This document shows, in pieces, positions 2,655-58,228 of a stretch of DNA of 59,880 nt. This DNA is from Escherichia phage vB_Eco_SLUR75. The notes under the pieces are model-generated. The model saw only the letters and a list, made by a program, of their open reading frames with translations. It made no database searches and was not told where the DNA came from. Both the position numbers and the translations under genes were made by a program. The first letter of the stretch is position 1, and each line of letters begins with the position of its first letter. The stretch lies in sequence record LR025197.1, one strand, 5' to 3'.

Positions 2655-3047
2655 ATGCTATTAGTCGTCACCGGAGGTCGAGATTTTAAGCATGTGGAGT
2701 ATATTTATGCTCAATTGGATAAGCTGCATATGCAAAGAAGGATAACCACACTTCGCCACGGTGACGCTGACGGTGTTGACCGCATTTGCGCACAGTGGGC
2801 AGAGCGCAACGGTATTAAGACAGAAGCGTTCCCTGCCCCGTGGGACAATCTTTCCTTACCAAATACCAAGATACGGTATAACGCCAAGGGTGCTTATAAT
2901 GCACAAGCTGGCGCATACCGTAACCAATTAATGCTGAATACTGATCCTAAACCAGATCACGCTATTGTGTTTCCTGGCGGAGCTGGTACTATGGATATGT
3001 ACAGACGGATTAAAGCATCCGGTATTCCTTATACTTTAGCGGAGTAA
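2655..3047 (+). CDS. SLOG/LOG-like Rossmann-fold protein (130 aa)
   Basis: VVTGGRD near N-terminus, HGDADGVD, and VFPGGAGTMD resembling the LOG-family PGGxGT motif. Confidence 0.4.
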   Translation: MLLVVTGGRDFKHVEYIYAQLDKLHMQRRITTLRHGDADGVDRICAQWAERNGIKTEAFPAPWDNLSLPNTKIRYNAKGAYNAQAGAYRNQLMLNTDPKPDHAIVFPGGAGTMDMYRRIKASGIPYTLAE

Positions 3048-25003: not shown

Positions 25004-25085
25004 CGGGACTCCTTTGTGTTGTTGTCAAGGTTCAATTTTAATATACTTGTTGTGTTGAGTAAGTCAAATAAATGTGGGAGATATT

Positions 25086-28000: not shown

Positions 28001-28472
28001 TGGTTGGATATACTACGGTCAGGTAAATACAGATGGAAGCCGAACATTTCAGGTAAACGGAACTGTCGGTTGTACTAGTGTTGTTCAAAGCTCAGACCGA
28101 GATCTTAAAGACAACATTAAGACTATTGCAGATGCAACTAAAGCATTGCGTAAAATGAATGGCTACACATATACTCTCAAGGAAGATGGTTTACCCTATG
28201 CTGGTGTAATCGCTCAAGAAGTTATGGAAGCTCTACCTGAAGCGGTTAGCAGTTTCACAAAGCATGAGTATATGGAAGGCCAAGATGGAGAAGGTAATGA
28301 TACAAGATATGATCTTGGAAAACGTTATCTTAATGTAGACTACTCCGCGGTAACTGGTCTTCTGGTTCAGGTTTGTCGTGAAGCAGATGACCGCATTACA
28401 AAACTTGAAACTGAAGTTGAGGAACTCAAAAAATTAGTTGCAACACTTGTTAATAAAGAACCACTACCATAA
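25086..28472 (+). CDS. Tail fiber with C-terminal intramolecular chaperone, peptidase S74-like (1128 aa)
   Basis: C-terminal SDRDLKDNIKTI...GYTYTLKEDG...YAGVIAQEV matches the self-cleaving chaperone motif; internal duplicated IPLAI(A/S)QGGTGAV motif. ATG at M5 of track ORF (track start 25074 is GTG). Confidence 0.8.
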   Translation: MATRLRGTLVDGLNKPIINATVALLAKGNSLTVLSGSEAIFKTSATGTYDITVQTGYYKVIIGPQGVEPYKAGEIAIYADSKEGTLNNYLTTWAPEELTPEVITQVKDLVAQAETAKNASSTSATKSEQERVKAEAAAKKAEDTANGMKASIGLTTAPRHVANITVEPTAFLGFIRIVRSTTVGYPDIASSENVLAGFISAMDGTPGYVGVFVGDFTGTVYTYRWTKNVGAVWWKQVNYSTVNRYTQLNAETNFTNQLGNAKLLIDNNKVWGAYDNDNKRYIPLAIAQGGTGAVNVNDALENFGLGRNSAPRFKHLDLDNASNSTQAASGILNGYLRDSSGVQRTKHRLYSEIKSDGKAWLTMQIYSDESTQKTLGYNIDGDFQIVRNFIGQSLQLSDLTTTHKNLQIDRFKQLSAGTRVYGGPADERYFEVHTGAWGVYNVTEKKWIPLAISQGGTGAVTVADAKKNLLIPDGGLDSATRVDKPAGAEDAKYYPIIISQPSGYDGTYLTEIEMSTPSRSAAQSPNSNILRAWIRSAGWSDKGTVGFGNFFAYDSKEVAILCIRGTSRGQYPHNAVYVKGDAFPVYIRKTVGSTITVPTSDWSADPNASDKCVYKWGITGDLDGIGDEYGCRNILNFVKGLNGFYCNDYFRDAGGNAYLKDGMNYGGDIKLQLRKLEINGNLTAGNAITAFGPTVANNTFVSQLTNADSSQALHQSEFRAGESGGQIVVRDMSAVANHKFFNFNLDGSFSPPNGLLSSTGVDWNSQINTVNKFYGIAGQVNSAENNVVYGGIHVGFSGNYAFQLAGRNNKASFRTFEAGTPGPWMRLITDQYADFKVPIFANKNGEAITIKSTVDDNSESGYIAGRNNANTRLWYIGKSGPQETVVIRNDMNGNQILLRDGAGDISLDTKDGNKVVFAKASNFRLVNSNGKYTRLVTSGSSTHAISMDNWGTSARPTVFECKYEDYSTSANVGWIYYGQVNTDGSRTFQVNGTVGCTSVVQSSDRDLKDNIKTIADATKALRKMNGYTYTLKEDGLPYAGVIAQEVMEALPEAVSSFTKHEYMEGQDGEGNDTRYDLGKRYLNVDYSAVTGLLVQVCREADDRITKLETEVEELKKLVATLVNKEPLP

Positions 28473-32433: not shown

Positions 32434-34419
32434 TTAGGCGTATCCCATGTCTTCGAGATACTTCTCTGCTTTAGCTATATAAGCATCATAATCTATGTCG
32501 TCCGGCACTTTATCCGGTAGCGTCATGATCGGAACACCTCCCGCGCTACCAGCTACACGGTTGCCCGTGTTAGCATAGATTATTTCAGGTGTTTCTTCAT
32601 TAGTGCTTAAGTACCAGCGTACAACCTTACCCAAAAATTCGCCATTCCATACCGCGCCACCTTTTACCGCACGTAAGATAATGAATTTTCTAATATCGTT
32701 GCAATTGCGTATAGTACGAGAAACAGGCGTACCGTGGGCCAAACATTCACATACAGCTTCCATAATAATCTCACCAGTACAGTTCTTTTGAAGACCTGTC
32801 TTTGCGAACCACCCTTTACGCTTAATTTCAACATTTCCTTCCTCGTCAGGTTCTTTTACTGCAACATAGTTATTGACGTTAGCACTGTACAGCTTGTCAT
32901 AGTAGTTGGATTCCATTTCAAAACCTGTTACGGATTCCCACCACTTGATCATATTATCAACGAAGTCCTGCATGTGGTCCGGATACTTAACCACAATACC
33001 GTCCGTGTTGGCTGAAATTACTTTAACACCATTTAACTCAAATGCTTCAATAAGCATCAACAGTGAAAGCTGTCCGGTTAATGTAACTTGTATCAATAAT
33101 TGCGGCGCGTACAGTACGGACCACATAGACCCCAGCTTACCAAACGATCCGTTGATAACGATCTTCAGCGTGTTGGCTGTGTTTTTGTCCCCTGAGTGCT
33201 TAGCTGCAATACGACGATCTACAATACTCTTATAAACACGAAGGAACGCTGGTCCCAACTGTTCTGGATATAAGCCCTGATTAAGAATGATTGTAGGATA
33301 ATAAGACGTTACGTCAATGTCCCGCTTTTTGATACCAGGCTCTTTACCGTGGCCAGCACACTCTTCGGAGCTATGCAAACCACCAATACCCATACGGTAG
33401 ACACCGTCCGCAATCTTGATTTCAAGACCTGTCAATGCAGGAGGTAAGCTGACACCACCGTTATCGCTAACAATAAAGCGACAGTCCCGAACAATATCCA
33501 AAACACTATTCATCAAAGGTGTTTGAAAACGAATAAAGTCCGGTATGTTGTATACATACTTTGTTCCAGGATAAACTTGCGGACGCTGTGGGCGCACGCC
33601 CGTCAACGCTTGGATTTCGTGCTTAATTACGTCTTCTGCAATTTGTGCATCGGAGCGTGAACGCAGGTCCACACCGTACTCTTGCGACATAATTTCACGA
33701 AGGTGTAAAGGTTCTTGTAATGCAATAAAACATTCTTCCGTCTGTACAAGGTCGTTAATACAGTACCAGCGCACAATAAGCATCTGGTCTTGCGTCAACA
33801 TTGTATTAGGCTTGAACGGTAAATCCTGCATACGACGAGTATGTACACGTCCGCCGTATTGTTTCAAACCGCCGGACCCAGGCAGCACTTCCATGATATC
33901 GATGTGGTTAACGTTCTGCATACGCTTGAGACGGTAACTCTTCAATACATCCGAAGGACGCCAGTCTTCAACGATTATTTTATCAGTTGCGTCTTTAAGC
34001 TGAGCATTAGAGCAGCCGTTAAGCGCAAGCGTAGCAATGGGCATATCGTACCCGTTACCGTTAAAGCTCACGATAAGGAAGTTTGTCATTACCCAGTTAA
34101 GTAGCAAGCAATTCAAACTACAACCGTGATACATCTCGAAGTAGACAACTTTCTTAGTTCGCACTCCGCGAAATGCAATTAAGAAATAATTTGGATAACA
34201 TTCTATATCATATACAAGCGGTTCGCGGTTAATCCATGCTTGAATAAGTTCGTCCTGTGTGTACAGGTTGTATTGGAAGTTCCGCGCTTCCTCAAGGTTA
34301 GGCAAATAATCCGGGCGCTCCCAAGTGCGCTCCGGCGGTAAACGTTTAACTTTTTCTTTCTTTGCTTTTGGCTCAGGCGGTAAGTCCTGCCAAAAGAAAC
34401 CAATAGCATCTGTCCGCAT
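32434..34419 (-). CDS. DNA polymerase, family B, with 3'-5' exonuclease domain (661 aa)
   Basis: Exo I LVYDIECY, Exo II NGNGYDMPI, pol motif A-like DIDVTSYYPT, motif B KIVINGSFGKLG, motif C-like ISANTDGI. Start at M19 of track ORF, overlapping upstream stop as TAATG. Confidence 0.8.
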   Translation of the reverse strand: MRTDAIGFFWQDLPPEPKAKKEKVKRLPPERTWERPDYLPNLEEARNFQYNLYTQDELIQAWINREPLVYDIECYPNYFLIAFRGVRTKKVVYFEMYHGCSLNCLLLNWVMTNFLIVSFNGNGYDMPIATLALNGCSNAQLKDATDKIIVEDWRPSDVLKSYRLKRMQNVNHIDIMEVLPGSGGLKQYGGRVHTRRMQDLPFKPNTMLTQDQMLIVRWYCINDLVQTEECFIALQEPLHLREIMSQEYGVDLRSRSDAQIAEDVIKHEIQALTGVRPQRPQVYPGTKYVYNIPDFIRFQTPLMNSVLDIVRDCRFIVSDNGGVSLPPALTGLEIKIADGVYRMGIGGLHSSEECAGHGKEPGIKKRDIDVTSYYPTIILNQGLYPEQLGPAFLRVYKSIVDRRIAAKHSGDKNTANTLKIVINGSFGKLGSMWSVLYAPQLLIQVTLTGQLSLLMLIEAFELNGVKVISANTDGIVVKYPDHMQDFVDNMIKWWESVTGFEMESNYYDKLYSANVNNYVAVKEPDEEGNVEIKRKGWFAKTGLQKNCTGEIIMEAVCECLAHGTPVSRTIRNCNDIRKFIILRAVKGGAVWNGEFLGKVVRWYLSTNEETPEIIYANTGNRVAGSAGGVPIMTLPDKVPDDIDYDAYIAKAEKYLEDMGYA

Positions 34420-35372
34420 TAGACACGTTCTCCAATTAACACACCGCGAAGATTTTCCCCAAAGAATGCGCAAGGTTGCGGATATAAACTAAAGTCCGCA
34501 GTCTTAACCACATTTTCGAGTAATAACAGGATGTCAATATTGTAAACTCCCGTTATTGATCTGTCCTGCAATACGAAGCTTGCACCTTCCGCATCATCGT
34601 AATGAGTACGCGCTAGACCGTTTTCAATATATACGCGAGGACGATCTTCCGCAAAAGGTTTAATTTTATGCAAGCCCTCAAAAAGACCTGGATCAACAGG
34701 ATGTGCATTGCATTGAACATTTAAAATACGACGAATATCAGGCCACTCCGCATCAATAAGCTGTGTTCGCAACCAGCGACCTTCCGGATAATGAAATGTT
34801 ACATTGTTCTTGCTAACCTGAATATGTGTCGGGTTAGCTTTAATGCGCAGTATTTCTTTAATAGCAACAGACGGTATTATGCAGTCAATAGGGAATTGAT
34901 TACCAAACCAATATTCCGCAATGGTGACGTTATTTGTAGCAAACAGGCTACCGTTATTAATCAGGATACCGCAAGCCCACGGGCGGGACGCATCCGAGCC
35001 TACGAACGGAGCAACGGATTTCACACCGTGTACGAAGCGAGCACCGTCTATTTCGTATAAATCGCCTTCAGGGAATACGTGAGGCGTTTCTTTGTCAATG
35101 CAGCGTATAGCAACACGAAACGGTCCGGACTTGATATTAAGTTTACCGTTAGCCATCATTGTTAACTGTACGGTTTCGTCACAGTTTGAAATAGCTTTAA
35201 TCATAGGTCCAGCTTCGGGCTTGCAATCAATATCCAGCTCAATAGGGCTACCCAGTGCAATAACACCGTTAAAGCCCTGTACCTGTCCATCACGGATAAG
35301 AAAGCTGGTAAGCCCTTCTACCAGTTCCTTTTTAGCGACGGAGCCTTGAACAAATTTAAGAGCGTCTAACAT
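34419..35372 (-). CDS. Hypothetical protein coupled to DNA polymerase (317 aa)
   Basis: Stop overlaps the polymerase start by 1 nt; no recognisable catalytic motif. Confidence 0.5.
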   Translation of the reverse strand: MLDALKFVQGSVAKKELVEGLTSFLIRDGQVQGFNGVIALGSPIELDIDCKPEAGPMIKAISNCDETVQLTMMANGKLNIKSGPFRVAIRCIDKETPHVFPEGDLYEIDGARFVHGVKSVAPFVGSDASRPWACGILINNGSLFATNNVTIAEYWFGNQFPIDCIIPSVAIKEILRIKANPTHIQVSKNNVTFHYPEGRWLRTQLIDAEWPDIRRILNVQCNAHPVDPGLFEGLHKIKPFAEDRPRVYIENGLARTHYDDAEGASFVLQDRSITGVYNIDILLLLENVVKTADFSLYPQPCAFFGENLRGVLIGERV

Positions 35373-35599
35373 TAGCGATCCTCGATTGCTCTAATTGTGG
35401 TTAAATCTAATTCACAGGTTGGAGGGTATCCATAAAGTCCCATTTGTTTTCCTTGTGCATTAAACCATGTACCTGACGGATCCTGCCACTGCTTAGGTGT
35501 CTTGTGGAGAAATACTACTCTGTTTTCACCGTAATAATTAATTCTTACGCCTGTGTGAGTATATTTACGTTTACCTTTTGGTCTTCTTAAGTTAGCCAT
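35372..35599 (-). CDS. Hypothetical basic protein (75 aa)
   Basis: Start/stop overlaps with both neighbours. Confidence 0.45.
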   Translation of the reverse strand: MANLRRPKGKRKYTHTGVRINYYGENRVVFLHKTPKQWQDPSGTWFNAQGKQMGLYGYPPTCELDLTTIRAIEDR

Positions 35600-36519
35600 C
35601 AGAACAACTCCATTACACGATCACGGAATGTGCCGTCATGGGTAGCGTTAATGTTTGCAGCAATTACACCATAAGCCCATAAATTGAAGGCAGCACGTGA
35701 TTCATAGATTGTTGATAAACGTTCGTAAGTGAAACCGTTTTGCTCAAGGTATTTAAGGACAGCGTCTTGTTCAATCTCAGTTAATGTTGAAACATGCTTA
35801 CCAAAATGATGGCGGTCCGGTGACTTATCGGATACGCGCATTGGACCCCACGGAGGAGTAACCACACTTCCAAACGCTGCCGCTTGAATCCAGGAGGATG
35901 AGTCACAGCTATACCACGGGTAACGCTCCATAATGGTTGTGGACGTAATACCAAACGCATGAAGTTTAATCTTAGCACGTCCGCTACCGTCGCAAATATA
36001 TTTGTCCCACATGCGGTCAAGCCAAGTCTTAAGCGTGTCCGTGGAACGTCCTACCATACCCCCGATAGTGATATATTCGTAGTTCTTCATGTAGTATTCA
36101 AGATAGCGGAAGTCCTCCCCAAAGTGAAAGCAAGGTAACGGTTTAGCACCGCGTGCTTCCATTTCAAGTTGGTTACGGTAGGTTTGCAACGGATCACCGA
36201 TACCATCGAGCACCGACGCCATTACTGCGCCATCTTCTACGCGAAGGATGTCTTTGTTGCGCTTGATGTATTCGCAGTATTCAACAATATCAATGTGAGC
36301 ACCTAACGAGTGCGCGGAGAATGCACCGGAGTCGAGAAACACTTTAGCCCCGTCCGCACGCATTTGATCAACATACTTCTGACGCCCAACGTAGTGGTAG
36401 GATTCCAAAATATGAGGCAGATTGCGCGTGATATTTTTCTCATGCTCTGACAGCTTTTCATAACGCTGCTGGCCAGGCATATATCCGTTCGTGTAAACTG
36501 CTGCCATAAAAACGTTCAT
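35599..36519 (-). CDS. dpdA: DpdA-like 7-deazaguanine DNA transglycosylase, TGT superfamily (306 aa)
   Basis: KVFLDSGAFS motif as I recall for phage DpdA; co-located with the preQ0 synthesis genes. Confidence 0.65.
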   Translation of the reverse strand: MNVFMAAVYTNGYMPGQQRYEKLSEHEKNITRNLPHILESYHYVGRQKYVDQMRADGAKVFLDSGAFSAHSLGAHIDIVEYCEYIKRNKDILRVEDGAVMASVLDGIGDPLQTYRNQLEMEARGAKPLPCFHFGEDFRYLEYYMKNYEYITIGGMVGRSTDTLKTWLDRMWDKYICDGSGRAKIKLHAFGITSTTIMERYPWYSCDSSSWIQAAAFGSVVTPPWGPMRVSDKSPDRHHFGKHVSTLTEIEQDAVLKYLEQNGFTYERLSTIYESRAAFNLWAYGVIAANINATHDGTFRDRVMELF

Positions 36520-36749
36520 TTTTGGAACGGTCCTCCAAACTGATCAATTAGTTCTAAAGTACGCCACGCTTCATTAAATGCTTCGTCCGCTCGATGTTTA
36601 GCGTCAATAAGCTGCTGCTTTAAAACATCTGTAGGCGCGTCATTCTGTATTGCAGAGCAAGCATCCGCAGTACCTGCTTTAAGCTGGTAGAATGCTGTCT
36701 CTAAGATTAGTTGTCTTGACATATTTCCTCCAATGACTAAAAAGCCCAT
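36516..36749 (-). CDS. Hypothetical protein (77 aa)
   Basis: ATGA-type overlap with dpdA start. Confidence 0.45.
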   Translation of the reverse strand: MGFLVIGGNMSRQLILETAFYQLKAGTADACSAIQNDAPTDVLKQQLIDAKHRADEAFNEAWRTLELIDQFGGPFQK

Positions 36750-36793
36750 ATCAGTATTATGACCGATATGGGCTTGATCTGTAAAGCTATCTA

Positions 36794-37435
36794 TTATTTA
36801 CAAGCTTCGAGAAACTCCCGGCGCCATTCTTTGCCAATATCGCTACCATGCCACAGTTCTGTAGCGCCCCGGAACGCTTTGGTAATAGTAGAGCTGCCGC
36901 ATACCTGCTTAACACCGCGCGACTCCATGCACATATGCTTGGCGTCAATATAAACACATACAGCTTTCGGGTTTAAATGCTCCTGAATAGCGTCTGCAAT
37001 CTGGTTAGTAAGACGTTCCTGAACTTGCAGTCGACGACTAAAAGCATCCACAACGCGAGACAGCTTACTAAGCCCAACAATCTTCCCATTGGGGACATAA
37101 CCAACAACAGCATGACCGATGATAGGAGCCATGTGATGCTCACAATGACTGTATACAGGAATATCACGGACAATGACCATTTCATTGGTGTTTTCCGCCC
37201 CATCCTCAAAGGTTTTAAACAGACCAGCGATATCTACATCGTAACCGCTAAACCATGTAGCATAAGCTTTAGCGACACGGTCTGGAGTCTCTGCTAATCC
37301 TGGACGTAATTCAATGCAATCTTCAATCTGAGTTAGTAAAGTATGCACCGCGCGAGCAATACGGAATTGAGTACCTTCGTTATCAATAGTAAATTTTGGC
37401 ATGGTTTGCAGTTTCCTTGTTGTTAATGTGGTCAT
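36794..37435 (-). CDS. folE: GTP cyclohydrolase I (213 aa)
   Basis: [20 protein letters not shown] and RLQVQERLT motifs match E. coli FolE. Confidence 0.9.
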
Positions 37436-37436
37436 A

Positions 37437-37973
37437 TTACAGGCTATAGTTTACGTGACATTTCGAAGTTTCTTCGATGGTGCATTCTACAAGTTGAACA
37501 CCATGTTCGTCAAGCAGTTGCGGACCAATCACGTCAACCATATATGCAGCTAAGTTTTCCGCAGTTGGGTTGAATGGTAAAGCTACCAATGAGCTTAAGA
37601 AATGCTCATGGTCTTCATGTTCCAGAGGACAACTCGGGCGACTTGCTGCAATTTTCAAAGCGTCAATCAAATTATCACGATTCCAATGCAGGAACTTATG
37701 ATCCCAATTATCTTCCAGCCACTGGCAGAGCGTAGTTTTAACCACACTAAAGTCGATAACTCGGCCCACATGGTCCAGCTTAGCTCGCTCTTTTACTTCG
37801 ACGTTGACAAGACCTCCGCCCATTTCAATTGGTACTTCTTTAACTGTTTCTTTCGGCGCAACCTTAAAGTGAAACTTATAGTTGTGACCGTGAAGGTGAC
37901 GACACTTGCTTTCATGCCCTACAACACGATGTCCAGCGCAAATTTCATGTGAACGAATTACTGTATAACTCAT
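37437..37973 (-). CDS. queD: 6-carboxy-5,6,7,8-tetrahydropterin synthase (178 aa)
   Basis: [22 protein letters not shown] (CxxH...C..HGH zinc/catalytic motif). Confidence 0.85.
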
Positions 37974-38560
37974 TTTAATACCTCTTTAGACTGTTCAATT
38001 TCTAACGCACGCTGCGCCGACGCAATAATGTCTTTCAAATCTTCTACCACATGCTTATGACCGCGTTCGCCAGGCTGCAACGCCTTTTTAATCAAATGTT
38101 GTAAAGCTGGGTTAGTTGTCTTCCAAGCTTCCAAGACATCATACACGTCCACGATGCATTTTACAACATTCCCATTTTGATCTTTACCATAAATAACTTT
38201 CTGATATTTATTCATGGGAATTTTAGACGGTTCGTATTTCGTAAAAACCGCACCATTAAATGTATTACTTATGCTTATTCCAGAAGAAGGTTGATTGTAC
38301 AATCCGGAGCGAGTGTTTTCGCTAGCCTGTTTGACGTAATCATCCGCAACGATATAGCGCCAGGCTATAATATCTTGAACTTTATAAGGGCTATTTTCAT
38401 CCATAGCTGAACGCCCTTCCATAGCCCAATCCCATCCATGTAATAGATTCTTAACGTGTGTGCCGTTGCGCAAACGAACTTCAAACTTCTCATTACGAAG
38501 AAAAATAGGCATTCCTTTACCGTCGTGTTGGTGCCAAATTTTATTCAAATTATCTTTCAT
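37970..38560 (-). CDS. Hypothetical protein inside the 7-deazaguanine cluster (196 aa)
   Basis: First ATG (M16) of track ORF, which begins with TTG; 2 nt after upstream stop. No QueF motif or other signature. Confidence 0.5.
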   Translation of the reverse strand: MKDNLNKIWHQHDGKGMPIFLRNEKFEVRLRNGTHVKNLLHGWDWAMEGRSAMDENSPYKVQDIIAWRYIVADDYVKQASENTRSGLYNQPSSGISISNTFNGAVFTKYEPSKIPMNKYQKVIYGKDQNGNVVKCIVDVYDVLEAWKTTNPALQHLIKKALQPGERGHKHVVEDLKDIIASAQRALEIEQSKEVLK

Positions 38561-38562
38561 TT

Positions 38563-39042
38563 TTACGCTCTCGCTGTACGTGAATGAACTTCGTAAACAA
38601 CCCAAAGGATAGCAGACGCTGTGAACTTACTTAAGCTCATTGCTACCATCGATCCCGGATTAACAATACCTATAATACTTAAGAACACAATGGAGTCAAT
38701 TGGTACAGCTACCAAAGAGCTGATAAATACTCGTTGATGGAAAGGCTTCTTGGTGACCGTGTATACTACATAGTCCGCAAACTCACTAAGCGCAAAAGAC
38801 GCAACGGATGCAACTACAACCGCAGGATTACCGAACACCCAGCTAAGGATGCAACCAACAATCATTGCAGGGATGACGCCTTTGCCAGCGTTACGCTGTG
38901 CGTAATCACGCAGAACAAAGATAATGCCTACAAAGAAAGCCATCATGGGGACTACGCCAAGTGGCGTATTAAGCATCGGAAGGTAGGAAAAGCCCAGGTT
39001 TACGAATGTAATTGCAGCCAGATAAGCAACGATAAATTTCAT
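38563..39042 (-). CDS. Integral membrane protein, possible queuosine-precursor transporter (159 aa)
   Basis: Four to five predicted TM helices; located between queC and queD. Transporter assignment is inference from context only. Confidence 0.3.
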   Translation of the reverse strand: MKFIVAYLAAITFVNLGFSYLPMLNTPLGVVPMMAFFVGIIFVLRDYAQRNAGKGVIPAMIVGCILSWVFGNPAVVVASVASFALSEFADYVVYTVTKKPFHQRVFISSLVAVPIDSIVFLSIIGIVNPGSMVAMSLSKFTASAILWVVYEVHSRTARA

Positions 39043-39162
39043 ACTTTTGTTCTCCAGTTTTAACAGCGTTATTCGCTGGTTGTTGGGTTTAAAAGCTTTA
39101 GTAGTATAGTTGGGTTACCGCACCCTAAACAATGCGCTAGCGGTGCGGTTTTCGCGGTAAGA

Positions 39163-39870
39163 TCAAGCTTTGCTAATAAATTCGCTGTACCCTTTAGCAC
39201 GAAGTTTACACGCTGGACATTCCCCGCAACCGTATCCCCAGTCATGCAGAGTACGACGGACGCCATTATAGCACGTATGGGACTGCTCAATTACTGTGGT
39301 TAAGAAACCAACCTTATCCGCCAGCTCAAACGTTTCCGCTTTGTTTAAACGCATAAGCGGAGTAACAAAATGGATATCTGTTTCATATCCAACGTTTAAG
39401 GTAGCTTCAAGTAGATCTACAAACTGCTGACGGCAATCCGGATAACCGCTATAGTCCGTTTCACAAACGCCTGTAACCACATATCGAGCTCCAACCTTCT
39501 GCGCGTAGGCGTGCGCGGTAGTCAGGAAAAGAGCATTACGGTTTGGCACAAAGCTTGCCGGAAGGTTGTTGTGCTGTTCGTGATGTTCGTTAACATCACC
39601 TTCATTCCCGATTAAAGCACTATTGCCGATCTGTTTCAAAGCAGGTAATTCAAAGACAACAAACGGGACATTGTGCTCTTTACAAATTTGATTAGCACAA
39701 GCCAGCTCAATGTTATGACGTTGACCGTATGCAAAACCGATAGCGTAGACTTTGTCATAGTTATTAAGTGCAAGACCTAGACAAGTCACGCTGTCCTGGC
39801 CGCCAGACAGGACGACAACGGCGGAGTTATGATTTTTTACAGGGAATACCAGTTTATCTAATTTATTCAT
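39163..39870 (-). CDS. queC: 7-cyano-7-deazaguanine (preQ0) synthase (235 aa)
   Basis: PP-loop VVLSGGQDS, GVCETDYSGYPDCR, C-terminal Cys cluster CYNG...GCGECPACKLR; aligns with E. coli QueC. Confidence 0.9.
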   Translation of the reverse strand: MNKLDKLVFPVKNHNSAVVVLSGGQDSVTCLGLALNNYDKVYAIGFAYGQRHNIELACANQICKEHNVPFVVFELPALKQIGNSALIGNEGDVNEHHEQHNNLPASFVPNRNALFLTTAHAYAQKVGARYVVTGVCETDYSGYPDCRQQFVDLLEATLNVGYETDIHFVTPLMRLNKAETFELADKVGFLTTVIEQSHTCYNGVRRTLHDWGYGCGECPACKLRAKGYSEFISKA

Positions 39871-40075
39871 TTACTTCACCTTTAATATCACAAGGGTTAA
39901 TTGTTACGTTAGACATTACAATTGGGTGATTACGCGCTCCAATTGTGCTAACGTAATTAATATCTAATTCTACATGCACGCCCTGCATAGTAGCATGGGC
40001 AATTGAAGAATTAAGTTTTTCTACCAGCTCAGTGATCATTTCCTGATGCTGTTTCGCTTCTTCCAAAGTGATCAT
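39863..40075 (-). CDS. Hypothetical protein (70 aa)
   Basis: Overlaps queC start by 8 nt. Confidence 0.45.
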   Translation of the reverse strand: MITLEEAKQHQEMITELVEKLNSSIAHATMQGVHVELDINYVSTIGARNHPIVMSNVTINPCDIKGEVNE

Positions 40076-40330
40076 TTAAACCTCCGTTAATGTTTGAGTC
40101 CAGTCTAAGCCTTCAAGATCTACATCAGCTATTTCATCGTACTCGTAAGCTTCCGGATCTGCTGGCAACCATCTATCAAAGCGATGGCTAAGTTCTGGAG
40201 GAATTGCTTCATATCCCCAAACCTTCCCATCCTTGTCGGCTGCCAGATAATCAACTCGACTTGGAACGGTTAAAGTGACACCACAAAAATTAACATCTTT
40301 AGTATGCACAACCTGGCTTAACACACGCAT
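40076..40330 (-). CDS. Small protein, paralog family member C (84 aa)
   Basis: YLAADKDGKVWGYEAIP and GLDWTQTLTEV motifs shared with paralogs A and B. Confidence 0.55.
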   Translation of the reverse strand: MRVLSQVVHTKDVNFCGVTLTVPSRVDYLAADKDGKVWGYEAIPPELSHRFDRWLPADPEAYEYDEIADVDLEGLDWTQTLTEV

Positions 40331-41037
40331 TATTCCACTCCGATATATTTGTGAACCTGAAGCTGCAACGTGTAACCGTGTTTCATACAGCTTTGGACAA
40401 CGGCTTGGATATTACTGTGGTTAAGGTCTTCATCCTGCTCGTCCATTGGCTGTAAATATATCTTACCCTTGAAACCCTTCGGAGGTCTAGCGATAAATGG
40501 CGTAGCTTGATGATCTAATGCTTGAAGAGGTAAACCATCTTCCACGTTTACACAGCACGCTTTAAGTACATATTTAAATGCATTAGCGCGGCGCAGCACA
40601 GAAGGATGAATCTTTGAGGTCTTGGGACTACATACAATTACAGGTAACTGGGAAAAGTTCTTAGGTAAAGGCATAGACCCATTAGTTTCAATTTGCACCA
40701 AATAGCCGCGCGATAACAGTTGTTCAATAAACGGGTTAATTTGCTGACGGAACGGTTCACCCCCAGTGATAACCACAAGTGAGGTGCTATTACCTGATTC
40801 CAGCTTACGGCTTTCGATTAAACGCATAATATCGACAATATGATAAAGACTACGACCAACAGTATAATCGGTATCACAGCCAGGGCATTGCAGATTACAC
40901 CCAGCAAGACGCACAAATACAGCAGGTTGGCCGCAGAATGGACCTTCACCCTGAATGGTAGAGAATACCGAATGCACGTCTAAATACATATCGTTTTCTT
41001 TAGAACGGGACTCGGGAGCTTGTTGATTAATATTCAT
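40330..41037 (-). CDS. queE: 7-carboxy-7-deazaguanine synthase, radical SAM (235 aa)
   Basis: FSTIQGEGPFCGQPAVFVRLAGCNLQCPGCDTDY aligns with E. coli QueE; strong RBS GAGGA before the ATG. Confidence 0.85.
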   Translation of the reverse strand: MNINQQAPESRSKENDMYLDVHSVFSTIQGEGPFCGQPAVFVRLAGCNLQCPGCDTDYTVGRSLYHIVDIMRLIESRKLESGNSTSLVVITGGEPFRQQINPFIEQLLSRGYLVQIETNGSMPLPKNFSQLPVIVCSPKTSKIHPSVLRRANAFKYVLKACCVNVEDGLPLQALDHQATPFIARPPKGFKGKIYLQPMDEQDEDLNHSNIQAVVQSCMKHGYTLQLQVHKYIGVE

Positions 41038-41059
41038 CTTAAATCCTCTAGTGAAAAAG

Positions 41060-41081
41060 AAAGCGCCTCATTGGGCGCTTT
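41060..41081 (-). terminator. Terminator hairpin downstream of KA-rich gene
   Basis: AGCGCC-tcattg-GGCGCT stem; on the reverse strand it is followed by a T-rich run. Confidence 0.5.
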
Positions 41082-41106
41082 CATTATAACGTGATATGTT
41101 TTGATA

Positions 41107-41919
41107 TTACAAGCCGTTCAGGGCTTCCGGTACTGGCATAGGTACGCGACCAGTTACACCATTAAACTTCTTCCAACGTGCATACTGAGTTTTAACAGTA
41201 TCTTCGTTCAGACCGTGACGACCTGCCAGATTCAGAACATAAGAGATTGGAGCAGGCTGACCCAGCGTAGCGCTAATCTGATCCATCAGGGCCCAGGCAC
41301 GACCGCAGGAAGTTTCAGGTTGCGGACGACGAACACCATTCTGTTCAGGCATACGGTTCGCTTCTTTCGCTTTTTCACGTTCAGCTTTTTCGCGGGCTTT
41401 TTCAGCAGCCTTTTCAGCCTGTTTAGCAGCGCGGATCTTGTCTTTGAAGCCTTTGATAGACGAATCCAGTTCGTCAACCATGCTCTGAGCAGCAGTTACT
41501 GCACCGGACAGATCTTCACCTTTGGATTTTTTAACAACTGCTTTCAGATCTTTCAGAGCATTCTTTAAATGCTTCAGCTGTTCGGAACCCTTAGATTCTG
41601 CTTCCGTAATCTGTTCAACAGTGCTTTCATCGGTAATACCGGATAAAGCAAACTTCACGGTTTCAACTGCCTGGGAAAGAGCGGTAAATTTATTTTCCGC
41701 TTCAATACGAATTTCAGCTTGTTTCTTTTCAGCGGCAGCTTTTTTCTCTGCTTCTTTTTTCTCTTTTGCTACGCGTGCAGCTTCAGCAGCAGCGGCTTTT
41801 TTAGCCTCTGCGTCGTTAGCAGTAGCTTCTTTCTTTGCAGGCTTAGCAGATTTTGCAGCGGCAGCAGCGGCTGCGGCAGCAGCGGCTTTCTTATCTTCAA
41901 TATTACTCATTTTCTTCAC
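41107..41919 (-). CDS. Lys/Ala-rich histone H1-like protein with conserved C-terminal domain (270 aa)
   Basis: N-terminal KKAAAAAAAAAAAKSAKPAKKEA and KEKKEAEKKAAAEKK repeats; C-terminal domain shares a motif with ORF 57541..58122. Confidence 0.6.
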   Translation of the reverse strand: MKKMSNIEDKKAAAAAAAAAAAKSAKPAKKEATANDAEAKKAAAAEAARVAKEKKEAEKKAAAEKKQAEIRIEAENKFTALSQAVETVKFALSGITDESTVEQITEAESKGSEQLKHLKNALKDLKAVVKKSKGEDLSGAVTAAQSMVDELDSSIKGFKDKIRAAKQAEKAAEKAREKAEREKAKEANRMPEQNGVRRPQPETSCGRAWALMDQISATLGQPAPISYVLNLAGRHGLNEDTVKTQYARWKKFNGVTGRVPMPVPEALNGL

Positions 41920-44569: not shown

Positions 44570-45478
44570 TCAATCTTTCCCGTAATAATTAGCTACTTGA
44601 TAGTTTCGACAACCAACTTTCTGCCCTTGCGTATCCACTGCGGCGGAATGGAAATTGCAATACCATGTTCCATCTTCTTTTGGTTCAAGGAATTGGCATG
44701 TGCGGCAGTTTACTTCCGGCATAGTTTTACGCCAGCATAGTGAGGAGTGATCGCACCATTTACATTCGAAGAAAGTGGAATCTTTAAATGCGCGGTCCGG
44801 AATATCTGTAGCAATAGCAATCTGCACACCACGATCAATATACATGTCCGCGGTAACAGGATCAAACGGAATAATTTCTGCGTAAACTTCATCGTCATTC
44901 TTGTTTACAGCAAGATATAACGCTGCGCCAAGACCTAGTTTTCGCATGTACACGTTCATCTGTACATAGTGCTCAGGTTTGGCTTCTTTAACACCTTTAG
45001 CTTTCAGCTTTTTAAAAGACTTATCGTTATGCGTCTTCATTTCGGTGAGCACAGGCATCCCAGGCTGCACGTCCGGACAACCTATAACCACACCATCGCA
45101 GGAACCGCCAAAGTGTCCGCCAGCTTCGCTGATACGGAACTGGTGTCCATTTTCGTCCTGCTGATAGACCTGCATACCTGCCGCAAGAAGCATAGCAATG
45201 AAACGCGCTTCTTCAAGATGTCCGCGGTTAAACAGTCGAAGCTGGCGTCCGTCAAACTCTTTGCGTGTAGCCCAGCGATATCCATAGAAAAGCTTGCGTG
45301 CGCATTGCTGCCCAATAAGGGAAGCGCCTAAGTGGCTGCGGTTACCGCTTTCAGGGCGATAAGCGTCTTCAATTGTGGGAATGACTACGCCAAGATACTT
45401 ACGGTAAGTCCCACCCTGATCTTTTTGCACACCGTCATTGATCGCTTGAAGTGTTTTTTCTGCAATATAAATAGCCAT
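44570..45478 (-). CDS. PD-(D/E)xK exonuclease, Cas4/RecB-like (302 aa)
   Basis: SCDGVV...LTEMKTH (D...ExK) and C-terminal CKWCDHSSLC (CxxCxxxxxC) with additional Cys. Confidence 0.5.
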   Translation of the reverse strand: MAIYIAEKTLQAINDGVQKDQGGTYRKYLGVVIPTIEDAYRPESGNRSHLGASLIGQQCARKLFYGYRWATRKEFDGRQLRLFNRGHLEEARFIAMLLAAGMQVYQQDENGHQFRISEAGGHFGGSCDGVVIGCPDVQPGMPVLTEMKTHNDKSFKKLKAKGVKEAKPEHYVQMNVYMRKLGLGAALYLAVNKNDDEVYAEIIPFDPVTADMYIDRGVQIAIATDIPDRAFKDSTFFECKWCDHSSLCWRKTMPEVNCRTCQFLEPKEDGTWYCNFHSAAVDTQGQKVGCRNYQVANYYGKD

Positions 45479-45543
45479 TGGAATACCTTAGAAAAATAAG
45501 CCGTCTTTCGACGGCTTATGGACACTACAGAGGGAGGGTTATC

Positions 45544-46431
45544 TTACTGCTGCCACGGCGGGACTGCTGCTTGTGCCGGATGCGGTTCAGCTTGCTGCTG
45601 CGGCTGAGCTTGCTGCTGAGGTGCTGCTGCCTGGCCCGGCTGTGCTACCTGCTGCGCCCACGGCTGCTGAGCTGCTTCCGGTGCTACTGGCTGTTGTACC
45701 GGAGCTTGCTGCACTGGCTGCTGAGGTGCTGCGTTTTGAGCAGGATTATCCCACGGCTGCGGTGCGGCATTCTGCCACGGTTGTGCTGCTGCGCCCTGCT
45801 GTGGTGCTTGTTGCTGCTGCACAGGCTGCTGAACTGGCTGCTGTTGCTGCACCGGAGCTTGCTGCTGTACAGGCGCTTGCTGTTGCTGAGCAAACGGGTT
45901 AGCTGCTGGTTGCTGTGGTGCTGCGCCCGGGAAAGCTGGCTGCTGAGCTGGCGCACCTGCACCGAACGGGTTAGCTACTGCCGCTTGAGCACCCATTGCT
46001 GGAGCACCTGCTTCTTTTTCCGCATACTTAACCGGATCGTTGATGTTAGCATAACCGTTAGGCTCGTTGCTGTCTTCATAACCTTCCTGAGAACGAACTT
46101 TCAGACGCAGGTTCAGCGGAATGTTATGCAGTTGAGCAGGAGTATCCCAGCGAATTACGCCAACCGCATGGGAAAGCGCGCCCAGTTGCTCGTAAGCGAT
46201 ACGCACGGTATCTTCGTTATCGTTGATAACGTTATAACGAGCGAAGATTTTACGACCTTTAGCAAAACCATCAATGATGCTAAACGTTACCTGGATCGCC
46301 ATACCGCCATTTTTGGTCGCTTTGAACTCAGACGCTTCAATTACCGCTTTATACCAACCTTTTGGCAATGCGCCATAAGAAGGTGCTTGATAGCTGCTCG
46401 CGTCAAAAGAGAATTTAGTTGGCATAGTCAT
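45544..46431 (-). CDS. Putative ssDNA-binding protein (DUF669-like) with Gln/Pro/Ala-rich tail (295 aa)
   Basis: Adjacent to and coupled with the Sak4-like ATPase gene; C-terminal low-complexity QQAPVQQQ tail. Confidence 0.4.
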   Translation of the reverse strand: MTMPTKFSFDASSYQAPSYGALPKGWYKAVIEASEFKATKNGGMAIQVTFSIIDGFAKGRKIFARYNVINDNEDTVRIAYEQLGALSHAVGVIRWDTPAQLHNIPLNLRLKVRSQEGYEDSNEPNGYANINDPVKYAEKEAGAPAMGAQAAVANPFGAGAPAQQPAFPGAAPQQPAANPFAQQQQAPVQQQAPVQQQQPVQQPVQQQQAPQQGAAAQPWQNAAPQPWDNPAQNAAPQQPVQQAPVQQPVAPEAAQQPWAQQVAQPGQAAAPQQQAQPQQQAEPHPAQAAVPPWQQ

Positions 46432-47159
46432 TAGTTAATACCTTTCATTTTGTTGATAACAGAACCTAAGTGTGGGACTTCAACCGCATCTAAACGTCCC
46501 GAACGATCCTTAGCGATTGTATTAAAGTCCGGTTGAGTTTGCAAGTAACGATACGAGTTACCTTGCTGATCCTTATTTACATTCAGACGAAACACTTCGT
46601 CGAAGAAGTAAGGGAGCATTTGCCCCAATTTGGATCCAGGCATAGATGGAGCATACGCGGTAACACCGGAGACTTCATCTTTGTCTTTGCCCATTTTAGC
46701 AGACATATAAACATGTTTGCCAGGAATATCGCGAAATTTACGGATCAGATCTTGCATCTTTTCAAGCAAAGTACCATAAGCTTGACGAGGATCTTTCGTT
46801 CCCTTTTTCGCGTTGTTTAAACATTGTTCAGCAATTTCGCTCAAGCTGTCAAGCGCAATAGAATCGAAATACTGCTGGTTAGCTGGAGTTACGCACCACT
46901 GATAAGCCGCTTCAACGTCTTCCAGACATTTCACTTCAATTACCGGAATATCGTAAACGATGGGCAAACCCATGTTACCATAAACACGGTTAAGGTTTTC
47001 CGCTGCAATAGACAACAGACCGGATTCTGCGCTGATTAAAATTGGTTTAGGTAATGTGGCTACAAGGCTGGTTTTACCCATACCTGCTTCACCGTAAACC
47101 AGAATTTTGACACCTGTGTCCTGCACAACTTGTGAAGACATTTTAATTTCAATGGCCAT
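46431..47159 (-). CDS. Sak4-like RecA-fold recombination ATPase (242 aa)
   Basis: Walker A ILVYGEAGMGKTSL near N-terminus; size typical of Sak4. Confidence 0.6.
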   Translation of the reverse strand: MAIEIKMSSQVVQDTGVKILVYGEAGMGKTSLVATLPKPILISAESGLLSIAAENLNRVYGNMGLPIVYDIPVIEVKCLEDVEAAYQWCVTPANQQYFDSIALDSLSEIAEQCLNNAKKGTKDPRQAYGTLLEKMQDLIRKFRDIPGKHVYMSAKMGKDKDEVSGVTAYAPSMPGSKLGQMLPYFFDEVFRLNVNKDQQGNSYRYLQTQPDFNTIAKDRSGRLDAVEVPHLGSVINKMKGIN

Positions 47160-57540: not shown

Positions 57541-58122
57541 TTATGCGTCCAGTCCGTTATATTTGCGCCAGGCGTAGAACTGAATGGCAACCGTTGTCCC
57601 GTTGTAAGAAGGCATTGCAGCTTTCATTTCTTTCAGCTCCGGCGTGCGGCCCAGTTCGGCTAAAAGTTTATCGCCCATTGCCCACACTTCGGCGGTTTTT
57701 CCTTTCAGGGGCTTGCGAGCGCCATTTTTGAAATCACAGCGAGCAGCTTTTGCATCCTGTTTTGGCGCGGCAGCTTTTGGCTCTTCAATTTTGATTTCAG
57801 AAACCTGCGTGGCAGCTTTTGCGTGTTTCATATCTTTCTCTTCCTCCTGCTCCAGAGCTTCGAGGCAGCTTTTGACGATTTCCGGATTTACCATCGGGCG
57901 CAGTACCGAGACGCTGGCAGCTGGCGCGGCGGTCGGTGCCGGGACTTTCTGCTCCGGCTGTTGCGCTTTTTTATGGTCGCGCAGCACCTGAAGCACTTCT
58001 TTCTCGACGATGTAAAAACCAATCTCGTCCTGATGGATAAGCTGTTCGTGTGCGTCGCGTGCAACCTGGCCCCAGCGGGTCTTAAGGGCGCGGCGTGCAT
58101 TCGTTTTCATGGTGTAGCGCAT
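57541..58122 (-). CDS. Hypothetical protein sharing C-terminal domain with the KA-rich protein (193 aa)
   Basis: ATG at M27 of track ORF (track start is GTG); C-terminal AEVWAMGDKLLAELG...YAWRKYNG parallels RAWALMDQISATLG...YARWKKFNG of ORF 41107..41919. Confidence 0.5.
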   Translation of the reverse strand: MRYTMKTNARRALKTRWGQVARDAHEQLIHQDEIGFYIVEKEVLQVLRDHKKAQQPEQKVPAPTAAPAASVSVLRPMVNPEIVKSCLEALEQEEEKDMKHAKAATQVSEIKIEEPKAAAPKQDAKAARCDFKNGARKPLKGKTAEVWAMGDKLLAELGRTPELKEMKAAMPSYNGTTVAIQFYAWRKYNGLDA

Positions 58123-58228
58123 TTTGTCCTGTTCGCGGTGGGTTACTTTAGACACGGTATAGCTCCTTTCGTTAATATTAGTTTGCTTATTACTGCCCAC
58201 CGTAATGATGAGCAGTGTATAAGAAAAC

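What the first reader, a model, noticed from the sequence alone, without database searches (positions are those of the whole stretch)
35599..41037. Complete preQ0 pathway plus DpdA: predicted 7-deazaguanine modification of virion DNA
A tightly packed co-directional block on the reverse strand encodes FolE ([15 protein letters not shown]), QueD (CxxH...HGHNY), QueE (radical-SAM CNLQCPGCDTDY, QGEG N-terminus) and QueC (SGGQDS PP-loop, Cys4 tail), i.e. every step from GTP to preQ0, together with a TGT-fold DpdA-like protein (FLDSGAFS). In described phage systems of this type DpdA exchanges guanine in DNA for a 7-deazaguanine base, protecting against host restriction. QueC here is not fused to an amidotransferase and no QueF-like protein is evident, so the predicted base is 2'-deoxy-preQ0 unless one of the unassigned genes in the block tailors it further.
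Basis: partly seen in the sequence, partly recalled or inferred. Interest (0 to 1): 0.8.

Follow-up and report, generated by a model that had tools for sequence, protein, structure and literature searches.

The report
Known Seuratvirus dPreQ0 DNA-modification gene cluster

Summary
Window 35599-41037 (- strand) holds ten tightly packed genes in the order queE, hyp84, hyp70, queC, yhhQ-like, hyp196, queD, folE, hyp77, dpdA. FolE, QueD, QueC and QueE give strong profile hits. DpdA hits the phage family strongly, and its predicted fold is closest to the solved bacterial DpdA and the tRNA-guanine transglycosylases.

The whole window is a complete Seuratvirus genome (Queuovirinae), about 97% identical to Escherichia phage vB_Eco_SLUR76. 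DpdA and QueE are 100% identical in protein sequence to those of phage CAjan. YhhQ is 99% identical and QueC 98%.

For CAjan, published LC-MS/MS found dPreQ0 replacing about 32% of G. Deleting dpdA, folE or queC abolished or strongly reduced the modification and restored restriction sensitivity. Nanopore sequencing placed it at GA and GGC motifs. In this window 28% of G lie in those motifs.

The QueC is unfused. No QueF, amidotransferase, DpdB/DpdC or methyltransferase was found among the proteins scanned. The unassigned genes in the block do not look pathway-specific. The predicted base is therefore dPreQ0.

The parts
35599..36519 (-). dpdA: phage DNA-guanine transglycosylase (preQ0 insertase), 306 aa
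36516..36749 (-). hyp77: small protein of unknown function. The true start is probably at 36722, giving 68 aa as annotated in CAjan and SLUR76.
   Evidence: phrog_20065 at 2.1e-40, matching residues 10-77. No Pfam or PADLOC hit. 92.6% identical to the CAjan homologue but only 36% to the gene at that position in WildeMaa. Overlaps the dpdA start by 4 nt.
36794..37435 (-). folE: GTP cyclohydrolase I (GTP to H2NTP), 213 aa
   Evidence: PF01227 2.6e-63; TIGR00063 193.4 bits against a cut-off of 181.6. CEHH...HMC zinc-ligand motifs are present. 86.5% identical to CAjan and 97% to WildeMaa. The weak QueF hits (25-30 bits, below cut-off) are most simply read as similarity between related folds (my reading, from my own knowledge).
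37437..37973 (-). queD: 6-carboxytetrahydropterin synthase, 178 aa, with an insertion relative to the Pfam model
   Evidence: PF01242 3.9e-22, matched in two stretches; phrog_2389 2.8e-54; TIGR03367 62 bits, below its 89-bit cut-off. The Cx3HGH motif (C24-RHL-H28-G-H30) is present. Only 76% identical to the CAjan and WildeMaa QueD.
37970..38560 (-). hyp196: two-domain protein of unknown function. The listed ORF runs to 38605 from a TTG; homologues start at the ATG at 38560.
   Evidence: phrog_23361 6.5e-100. The C-terminal domain of about 65 aa is nearly invariant in many phage proteins with different N-termini. Two of these were traced to contigs that show no 7-deazaguanine genes. No Pfam, PDB-sequence or Foldseek match. 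AF2 model pLDDT 66, pTM 0.36.
38563..39042 (-). yhhQ-like: short (159 aa) Vut_1/YhhQ-family membrane protein, putative preQ0 transporter
   Evidence: PF02592 9.3e-6 (26.5 bits against a 27.2-bit cut-off); TIGR00697 6.6e-5. Many homologues carry a precomputed PF02592 hit, and some are named queuosine precursor transporter or YhhQ. 158/159 identical to the CAjan 'putative preQ0 transporter'. Deleting yhhQ in CAjan did not change the modification.
39163..39870 (-). queC: 7-cyano-7-deazaguanine (preQ0) synthase, 235 aa, not fused to a Gat domain
   Evidence: PF06508 7.2e-75, covering residues 17-230; TIGR00364 243 bits against a cut-off of 150. It matches only positions 132-351 of the 418-position phrog_1550. 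SGGQDS PP-loop and a four-Cys tail are present. 98% identical to CAjan QueC.
39863..40075 (-). hyp70: small protein of unknown function
   Evidence: phrog_26258 2.4e-50. That family's 'radical SAM' label has no support from Pfam here. 93% identical to the CAjan homologue.
40076..40330 (-). hyp84: small protein of unknown function, member of a three-copy family in this genome
   Evidence: phrog_1972 1.3e-22. Paralogues at 732-974 and 1316-1618 (blastp 1e-10 and 5e-6). Present in WildeMaa and SLUR76; no gene is annotated at this position in CAjan.
40330..41037 (-). queE: radical-SAM 7-carboxy-7-deazaguanine synthase, 235 aa
   Evidence: TIGR04322 5.7e-28, TIGR04508 3.7e-27 and three further QueE models, all below their equivalog cut-offs. 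phrog_2076 5.9e-69. CxxxCxxC cluster motif. 235/235 identical to CAjan QueE.
41059..41082 (-). Terminator-like hairpin with a T run, just upstream of queE. It probably ends the preceding transcription unit.
   Evidence: Nine-pair stem with 6 GC pairs, followed by TTTTT. This is a consensus match only, and the number of such sites in the region is not above the shuffle expectation.

Best explanation
The block is the dPreQ0 DNA-hypermodification module of a Seuratvirus coliphage.

FolE, QueD, QueE and QueC convert GTP through H2NTP, CPH4 and CDG into the free base preQ0. DpdA is a TIM-barrel transglycosylase of the TGT superfamily. After replication it removes guanine from double-stranded phage DNA and inserts preQ0 in its place. 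In CAjan this happens at GA and GGC motifs.

The result is a virion genome with roughly 28-32% of its G replaced by 2'-deoxy-7-cyano-7-deazaguanosine. This blunts type I and type II restriction. A short YhhQ-like membrane protein probably scavenges external preQ0 and is dispensable.

Shown here: gene content, family membership, the DpdA fold, protein identity to CAjan, and motif density. Shown in the literature for CAjan: the chemistry, the gene requirements, the target motifs and the protection. Inferred: that this phage behaves like CAjan, and that QueD and QueE (not deleted in CAjan) catalyse their canonical steps.
For: - **Family membership:** profile hits for all five enzymes.
- **Identity to CAjan:** DpdA and QueE 100%, YhhQ 99.4%, QueC 97.9%. 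All nine published DpdA pocket and catalytic residues are kept.
- **Taxonomy:** the block is 97.9% identical over 100% of its length to SLUR76, and 92-96% to Seurat, Greed, slur01 and the BASEL Seuratvirus phages. The whole window is about 97.3% identical to SLUR76 over 90.5%.
- **CAjan chemistry and genetics:** dPreQ0 at 70,628 per 10^6 nt (about 32% of G), absent in the dpdA deletion mutant, which becomes restriction-sensitive. Deleting folE or queC removes the phage-driven modification, deleting yhhQ does not, and the motifs are GA and GGC.
- **Motif density here:** 28.3% of G, or 63,193 per 10^6 nt, lie in GA or GGC.
- **In vivo protection:** BASEL Seuratvirus phages resist type I and II restriction-modification systems.
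- **No further tailoring enzymes:** no Gat domain, QueF, DpdB/C or methyltransferase in the Pfam and PADLOC scans.
Against: - Nothing was measured on this phage's own DNA.
- QueD (76%), FolE (86.5%) and hyp196 (57%) differ from the CAjan alleles, and hyp84 is not annotated in CAjan. So the central part of the block is not the experimentally tested version.
- Several hits fall below the curated equivalog cut-offs: QueE, QueD in NCBIfam, and YhhQ.
- The DpdA structural model is of only moderate confidence (pLDDT 64).
Confidence: 0.93

Rival explanations
1. The product is tailored beyond preQ0 (for example to dADG, dG+, dPreQ1 or a new derivative) by one of the unassigned genes in the block: hyp77, hyp196, hyp70 or hyp84.
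For: Four ORFs in the block have no assigned function. hyp196 is only 57% identical to its CAjan counterpart, and hyp84 is not annotated in CAjan. New tailoring enzymes for 7-deazaguanines are still being discovered (PMC10516641).
Against: - CAjan carries homologues of hyp77, hyp196 and hyp70, yet its DNA holds dPreQ0 only; all other species are below 6 per 10^6 nt.
- The conserved domain of hyp196 occurs in phage contigs that show no 7-deazaguanine genes.
- hyp84 has two paralogues in the early region, outside the block.
- None of these ORFs has a Pfam hit at E <= 0.01, and hyp70 and hyp84 are 70 and 84 aa.
- There is no Gat, QueF, ArcS or DpdC signal anywhere among the proteins scanned.
Confidence: 0.04
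2. The genes serve tRNA modification. On this view the 'queuosine tRNA-ribosyltransferase', as older annotations call it, boosts queuosine or preQ0 in host tRNA rather than modifying DNA.
For: Many GenBank records of relatives still name the gene queuine or queuosine tRNA-ribosyltransferase. The fold is shared with the tRNA-guanine transglycosylases.
Against: - The identical protein in CAjan is required for dPreQ0 in DNA.
- The protein is 306 aa, consisting of the TIM barrel plus a helical tail.
- No Pfam TGT hit, and no PDB sequence hit even at E <= 10.
- The window has no tRNA genes, and no QueF, QueA or QueG was found among the proteins scanned, so queuosine could not be completed.
Confidence: 0.02
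3. The cluster is present but inactive in this isolate, so the virion DNA is unmodified.
For: There are no direct data on this phage. The QueD allele diverges from the tested CAjan one.
Against: All ten ORFs are intact, and every catalytic motif checked is present. Coding sequences are conserved at 92-98% nucleotide identity across dozens of isolates. DpdA alone still inserts host-made preQ0 at about 12-fold lower level in CAjan folE and queC deletion mutants.
Confidence: 0.01

Closest known systems
Escherichia phage CAjan (Seuratvirus cajan) dPreQ0 system: FolE-QueD-QueE-QueC-DpdA plus YhhQ (Hutinet 2019, PMC6884629; Kot 2020, PMC7544227)
   Same: Same genus, same gene order, and the same position next to the DNA polymerase genes. 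DpdA and QueE are 100% identical, YhhQ 99% and QueC 98%. GC content is the same (44.7%) and the GA/GGC motif load is similar.
   Different: The FolE (86.5%), QueD (76%) and hyp196 (57%) alleles diverge. This window has hyp84 and lacks two small CAjan ORFs, those at L002 5346-5669 and 7561-7749.
Escherichia phage vB_Eco_SLUR76 / SLUR26 (Seuratvirus; Sazinas 2017, PMC5758909)
   Same: Nearest sequenced relatives. The block is 97.9% identical over 100% of its length, with the same ten genes. The whole genome is about 97% identical over 90%.
   Different: About 5.7 kb of the window has no counterpart in SLUR76. This is mainly the distal tail-fibre region (25748-28133) and small early genes. No modification chemistry for the SLUR phages turned up in the papers I read.
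Enterobacteria phage 9g / Nonagvirus dG+ (archaeosine) system
   Same: Same subfamily (Queuovirinae). It shares the FolE-QueD-QueE core and the same DpdA type.
   Different: 9g has QueC fused to a glutamine-amidotransferase domain (Gat-QueC), which gives dG+ instead of dPreQ0. Here QueC is unfused.
Bacterial Dpd system (Salmonella Montevideo DpdA/B/C; PDB 7ui4; PMC10164549)
Pseudomonas phage iggy (Queuovirinae-like) dPreQ0 system (PMC10484667)
   Same: A dPreQ0 modification inserted by a phage DpdA, protecting against restriction enzymes (abstract).
   Different: iggy DpdA targets GA only and modifies about 16.5% of G. The CAjan-type DpdA found here targets GA and GGC.

Membership tests
Phage DpdA (9g/CAjan type, 'DpdA1') within the TGT superfamily | TGT-like (beta/alpha)8 barrel fold | tested here: met
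Phage DpdA (9g/CAjan type, 'DpdA1') within the TGT superfamily | Two catalytic aspartates and the preQ0/guanine pocket residues | tested here: met
   D63, D206, S64, F67, D105, H132, G153, G154 and F189, as listed by Kot 2020, are all present. D63, S64, F67, D105, H132, G153, G154, F189 and D206 are invariant in 32 homologues.
Phage DpdA (9g/CAjan type, 'DpdA1') within the TGT superfamily | Sequence membership in the phage family | tested here: met
   phrog_887 at 8.2e-96. 306/306 identical to CAjan DpdA. 2811 homologues at E <= 1e-5.
Phage DpdA (9g/CAjan type, 'DpdA1') within the TGT superfamily | Guanine to preQ0 exchange activity on DNA | not testable with these tools
   Shown genetically for the identical CAjan protein.
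Bacterial DpdA (NCBIfam NF041059 equivalog) | Score at or above the curated cut-off (200 bits) | tested here: not met
   16.9 bits, E 2.2e-3, over 66 residues. PADLOC DpdA gives 15.6 bits. The protein works like a bacterial DpdA but is not a member of that equivalog.
Bacterial Dpd modification module | Partner proteins DpdB (ATPase) and DpdC | tested here: not met
   No such hits in the PADLOC scan of 10 proteins, nor in the Pfam scans of the block and 40 other window ORFs.
GTP cyclohydrolase I FolE | Profile score above the curated cut-off, and zinc-ligand motifs | tested here: met
   PF01227 213 bits against 27. TIGR00063 193.4 bits against 181.6. CEHH and HMC motifs are present.
QueD (6-carboxytetrahydropterin synthase) | PTPS fold family with the Cx3HGH signature | tested here: met
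   PF01242 78.9 bits against 22.4. C24-x3-H28-G-H30 is present. The NCBIfam equivalog TIGR03367 gives 62.4 bits, below its 89.25-bit cut-off, because of an insertion that splits the match.
QueE (7-carboxy-7-deazaguanine synthase) | Radical-SAM cluster motif and best hits to QueE models | tested here: inconclusive
   CxxxCxxC motif is present. The five best NCBIfam hits are all QueE models (E 6e-28 to 2e-20), but each is below its equivalog cut-off (98 bits against 200 for the best). phrog_2076 at 5.9e-69. 100% identical to CAjan QueE, which has not itself been deleted or assayed.
QueC (preQ0 synthase), unfused form | Score above cut-off, PP-loop, Cys4 zinc site, and no Gat domain | tested here: met
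   TIGR00364 243 bits against 150.3. PF06508 covers residues 17-230 of 235. SGGQDS and C...CxxCxxC are present. The upstream ORF is a 70-aa protein with no GATase hit.
YhhQ / Vut_1 (queuosine precursor transporter) | Profile score above the cut-off | tested here: inconclusive
   PF02592 gives 26.5 bits against a 27.2-bit cut-off. TIGR00697 gives 22.8 bits against 50.95. However, many homologues of 40-97% identity carry precomputed PF02592 hits, and some carry YhhQ names. At 159 aa it is shorter than the 183-201-aa homologues named queuosine precursor transporter.
YhhQ / Vut_1 (queuosine precursor transporter) | preQ0 transport activity | not testable with these tools
   Deleting yhhQ in CAjan gave no modification phenotype. 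Transport by the phage protein was not shown in the papers I read.
Genus Seuratvirus (Queuovirinae) | Genome-wide nucleotide similarity to named members, and the queCDE/folE/dpdA signature | tested here: met
   About 97.3% identity over 90.5% of the window to SLUR76. 92-98% identity across the block to more than 30 Seuratvirus records. The signature is described in PMC5758909 and PMC8594841.

The most novel reading that the evidence does not exclude
The central third of the block (36.5-38.6 kb: hyp77, folE, queD, hyp196) is a recombinant allele set that differs from the experimentally tested CAjan version. hyp196 carries a highly conserved C-terminal domain of about 65 aa that has no Pfam family, is spread across unrelated phages and has no known function. 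The evidence does not exclude that this domain, or the divergent QueD with its insertion, changes the level or chemistry of the modification, or that the domain defines an undescribed family of phage DNA- or nucleotide-handling proteins.
Probability: 0.05. Interest if true: 0.45.

Novelty: already known. Interest (0 to 1): 0.12.

Why it matters
It matters mainly for annotation. The window is a Seuratvirus genome whose DNA should carry dPreQ0 on roughly 28-32% of its guanines, at GA and GGC. This has practical consequences:
- partial resistance to many type I and type II restriction enzymes;
- lower nanopore read quality, as seen for modified CAjan DNA;
- care when cloning or digesting the virion DNA.

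It adds no new biology. The system has been characterised genetically, chemically and by nanopore sequencing in a phage whose DpdA is identical to this one.

Tried and rejected
1. **A function for hyp196 (37970-38560).** Pfam at E <= 10, a PDB sequence search, an AF2 model (pLDDT 66, pTM 0.36) and Foldseek against the PDB all gave nothing significant. The genomic context of distant homologues showed no link to 7-deazaguanine genes. I therefore rejected it as a tailoring enzyme, and its function stays unknown.

2. **A preQ1 riboswitch or other RNA element** in the 120-nt gap upstream of yhhQ, or anywhere in the window. Rfam gave no hit at gathering thresholds over the whole window and only chance-level hits in the block. 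A conserved hairpin follows the queC stop, with a fold z-score of only -2.2.

3. **Promoter and terminator scan of the block.** The counts are not above the shuffle expectation. Only the hairpin at 41082-41059 looks like a real terminator.

4. **A PDB sequence search with DpdA** found nothing even at E <= 10. The relationship was visible only by fold.

5. **QueF.** FolE gives weak QueF hits (25-30 bits, below cut-off). I read these as similarity between related folds, not as a QueF.

6. **Bacterial Dpd partners (DpdB, DpdC).** None were found.

7. **A fused Gat-QueC.** Rejected on length and domain coverage.

Full report
**Observation.** The region 35599-41037 holds ten co-directional ORFs on the - strand. 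In order of transcription they are:
- queE (41037-40330)
- hyp84 (40330-40076)
- hyp70 (40075-39863)
- queC (39870-39163)
- a yhhQ-like gene (39042-38563)
- hyp196 (38560-37970)
- queD (37973-37437)
- folE (37435-36794)
- hyp77 (36749-36516)
- dpdA (36519-35599)

Neighbouring genes overlap by 1-8 nt or are separated by 1-2 nt. There are two exceptions: a 44-nt gap before folE and a 120-nt gap before yhhQ.

**Family assignments.** The profile searches are unambiguous for four of the enzymes.
- FolE: PF01227 2.6e-63, and TIGR00063 above its cut-off.
- QueD: PF01242 3.9e-22, with the Cx3HGH signature.
- QueC: PF06508 7.2e-75, and TIGR00364 above its cut-off.
- QueE: its five best NCBIfam hits are all QueE models (down to 5.7e-28), although each is below its equivalog cut-off. 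phrog_2076 gives 5.9e-69.

DpdA has no Pfam hit. Against the bacterial DpdA models it gives only weak hits (E about 1e-3). It matches the phage family phrog_887 at 8.2e-96.

**What the window is.** Megablast of the block finds 56 phage records.
- Escherichia phages vB_Eco_SLUR76 and SLUR26 match at 97.9% identity over 100% of the block.
- Thirty more records cover at least 80% of the block, at 92-96% identity. They include Seurat, Greed, slur01, CAjan and the BASEL Seuratvirus phages.
- The records inspected are classified Queuovirinae; Seuratvirus.
- A local blastn of the whole window against SLUR76 gives about 97.3% identity over 90.5%, in a circularly permuted, reverse orientation.

The window is therefore a complete Seuratvirus genome.

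**Comparison with the experimentally characterised system.** Identity of the window proteins to phage CAjan:

| Protein | Identity to CAjan |
|---|---|
| DpdA | 306/306 |
| QueE | 235/235 |
| YhhQ | 158/159 |
| QueC | 230/235 |
| FolE | 86.5% |
| QueD | 76% |
| hyp196 | 57% |

Hutinet et al. 2019 (PMC6884629) found 70,628 dPreQ0 per 10^6 nt in CAjan DNA. That is about 32% of G, with every other 7-deazaguanine below 6 per 10^6. A dpdA deletion removed the modification and made the DNA fully digestible.

Kot et al. 2020 (PMC7544227) added four results:
- folE and queC deletions lose the phage-driven modification; for the queC mutant, LC-MS/MS found a residual dPreQ0 level about 12-fold lower, attributed to host-made preQ0.
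- A yhhQ deletion has no effect.
- The targets are GA and GGC.
- Modelling places D206 as the nucleophile and D63 as the second catalytic aspartate. All nine named pocket and catalytic residues are present here.

In this window 28.3% of G, or 63,193 per 10^6 nt, lie in GA or GGC. This is close to the CAjan measurement.

Maffei et al. 2021 (PMC8594841) describe dPreQ0 as the signature feature of Seuratvirus. They show that these phages resist type I and II restriction-modification systems in vivo but remain sensitive to type III.

**Is the base tailored further?** Five lines of evidence say no.
- QueC is unfused. The protein is 235 aa, and the domain covers residues 17-230. It matches only the C-terminal part of a phrog whose profile extends a further 131 positions at the N-terminus.
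- Pfam scans of the block and 40 other ORFs found no QueF, GATase, ArcS-like, DpdC or methyltransferase domains. These were the non-structural ORFs of 100 aa or more plus some shorter ones. Only replication and nucleotide-metabolism genes, a holin and a SLOG-domain protein gave hits. PADLOC found no DpdB or DpdC.
- The weak QueF hits of FolE fall below cut-off.
- hyp196 has a nearly invariant C-terminal domain of about 65 aa, shared by many phage proteins with unrelated N-termini. Two of these lie on contigs that show no 7-deazaguanine genes.
- hyp84 has two paralogues in the early region of this genome. hyp77, hyp196 and hyp70 have homologues in CAjan, whose DNA contains only dPreQ0.

Tailoring by these genes is therefore unlikely (about 4%).

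The 159-aa membrane protein at 38563-39042 is a short-form member of the YhhQ/Vut_1 family. Its Pfam hit is 9.3e-6, just under the cut-off. Many homologues carry PF02592, and some are named queuosine precursor transporter. It is annotated as a preQ0 transporter in CAjan and WildeMaa. I searched for a preQ1 riboswitch in the 120-nt leader and found none.

**Mechanism.**
1. GTP is converted to H2NTP by FolE.
2. H2NTP is converted to CPH4 by QueD.
3. CPH4 is converted to CDG by the radical-SAM enzyme QueE.
4. CDG is converted to preQ0 by the ATP-dependent QueC.
5. DpdA then exchanges guanine for preQ0 in duplex phage DNA at GA and GGC after replication. It most likely uses the TGT double-displacement chemistry, through a covalent Asp206-C1' intermediate.

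Steps 1-4 follow from family membership and from established knowledge of the queuosine pathway. Step 5 is shown genetically in CAjan, but its chemistry is inferred from homology.

Unlike the bacterial DpdA, which needs the DpdB ATPase (PMC10164549), the phage enzyme has no detectable partner in this genome.

The module sits directly upstream of the clamp-like and DNA polymerase genes (34419-35372 and 32434-34473). This fits expression alongside replication.

**Verdict.** The system is already known: it is the defining feature of the genus, with an identical key enzyme in the model phage. Interest is low. The only loose ends are the unknown small genes and the divergent allele of the central part of the block.

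Noticed in passing
window 37970-38560 (-), residues about 118-190 of the protein: The C-terminal domain of about 65 aa of hyp196 (consensus NKYQR..VDVYDVL.AW.V.NPALQHLIKKALQPGERGHK..DLKDIIASAQRA) has 24 invariant positions across 40 phage proteins with unrelated N-termini. Two of those proteins lie on contigs that show no 7-deazaguanine genes. There is no Pfam, PDB or Foldseek match, so this looks like an unannotated, widespread phage domain.
   Followed up: partly
window 40076-40330 (-), 732-974 (+), 1316-1618 (+): hyp84 in the block belongs to a three-copy family of small proteins in this genome (blastp 1e-10 and 5e-6; phrog_1972). No gene is annotated at the block position in CAjan.
   Followed up: partly
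window 36516-38605: The block is mosaic relative to CAjan. DpdA, QueE, YhhQ and QueC are 98-100% identical, but FolE is 86.5%, QueD 76% and hyp196 57%. hyp77 is 93% identical to CAjan yet only 36% to the gene at that position in WildeMaa. This suggests allele exchange inside the cluster among Seuratvirus phages.
   Followed up: partly
window 39043-39162 (-), hairpin about 39149-39118: The 120-nt queC-yhhQ intergenic region is 99% identical in CAjan and WildeMaa. It holds a GC-rich hairpin (ACCGCACC...GGTGCGGT) just after the queC stop, with no T run. The fold z-score is -2.2, and there is no Rfam match and no preQ1 riboswitch.
   Followed up: partly
window 41059-41112 (-): A promoter-like site (TTGTAA-18-TATAAT, 41112-41083) lies directly next to a strong terminator-like hairpin with a T run (41082-41059). 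Both sit between the gene for the 270-aa Ala/Lys-rich protein and queE, and may mark a transcription-unit boundary.
   Followed up: no
window 41107-41919 (-) and 57541-58200 (-): A 270-aa protein with a poly-Ala and Lys/Glu-rich low-complexity N-terminal half shares a C-terminal domain of about 69 aa (30% identity, E 1e-4) with a 219-aa early-region protein. The CAjan homologue is annotated as containing an 'FtrA domain', which Pfam does not support here.
   Followed up: no
window 2655-3047 (+): A 130-aa protein has a YAcAr / YspA-related SLOG domain (PF10686, 2.1e-18). The counterpart in SLUR76, by position in the genome alignment, is annotated 'phosphoribosyl transferase'. It may be a nucleotide-binding or nucleotide-processing protein, with no obvious link to the preQ0 pathway.
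   Followed up: no
window 25074-28472 (+), especially 25748-28133: The 1132-aa tail-fibre ORF has no or only weak (72%) nucleotide similarity to the nearest relative SLUR76 over about 2.4 kb, whereas the flanks are 97-98% identical. This looks like a host-range module swap.
   Followed up: no
whole window: No tRNA genes were found (ARAGORN), and no Rfam family reaches its gathering score. GC skew changes sign near 30 kb, where gene orientation switches from the + strand (structural genes) to the - strand (replication and modification genes).
   Followed up: yes
window 45478-46434 (+) versus 45544-46431 (-): A 318-aa ORF on the + strand is a shadow of the real - strand gene. That gene is 295 aa with a DUF669 hit (PF05037, 8.3e-15). 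This is a caution for naive ORF calling here.
   Followed up: yes
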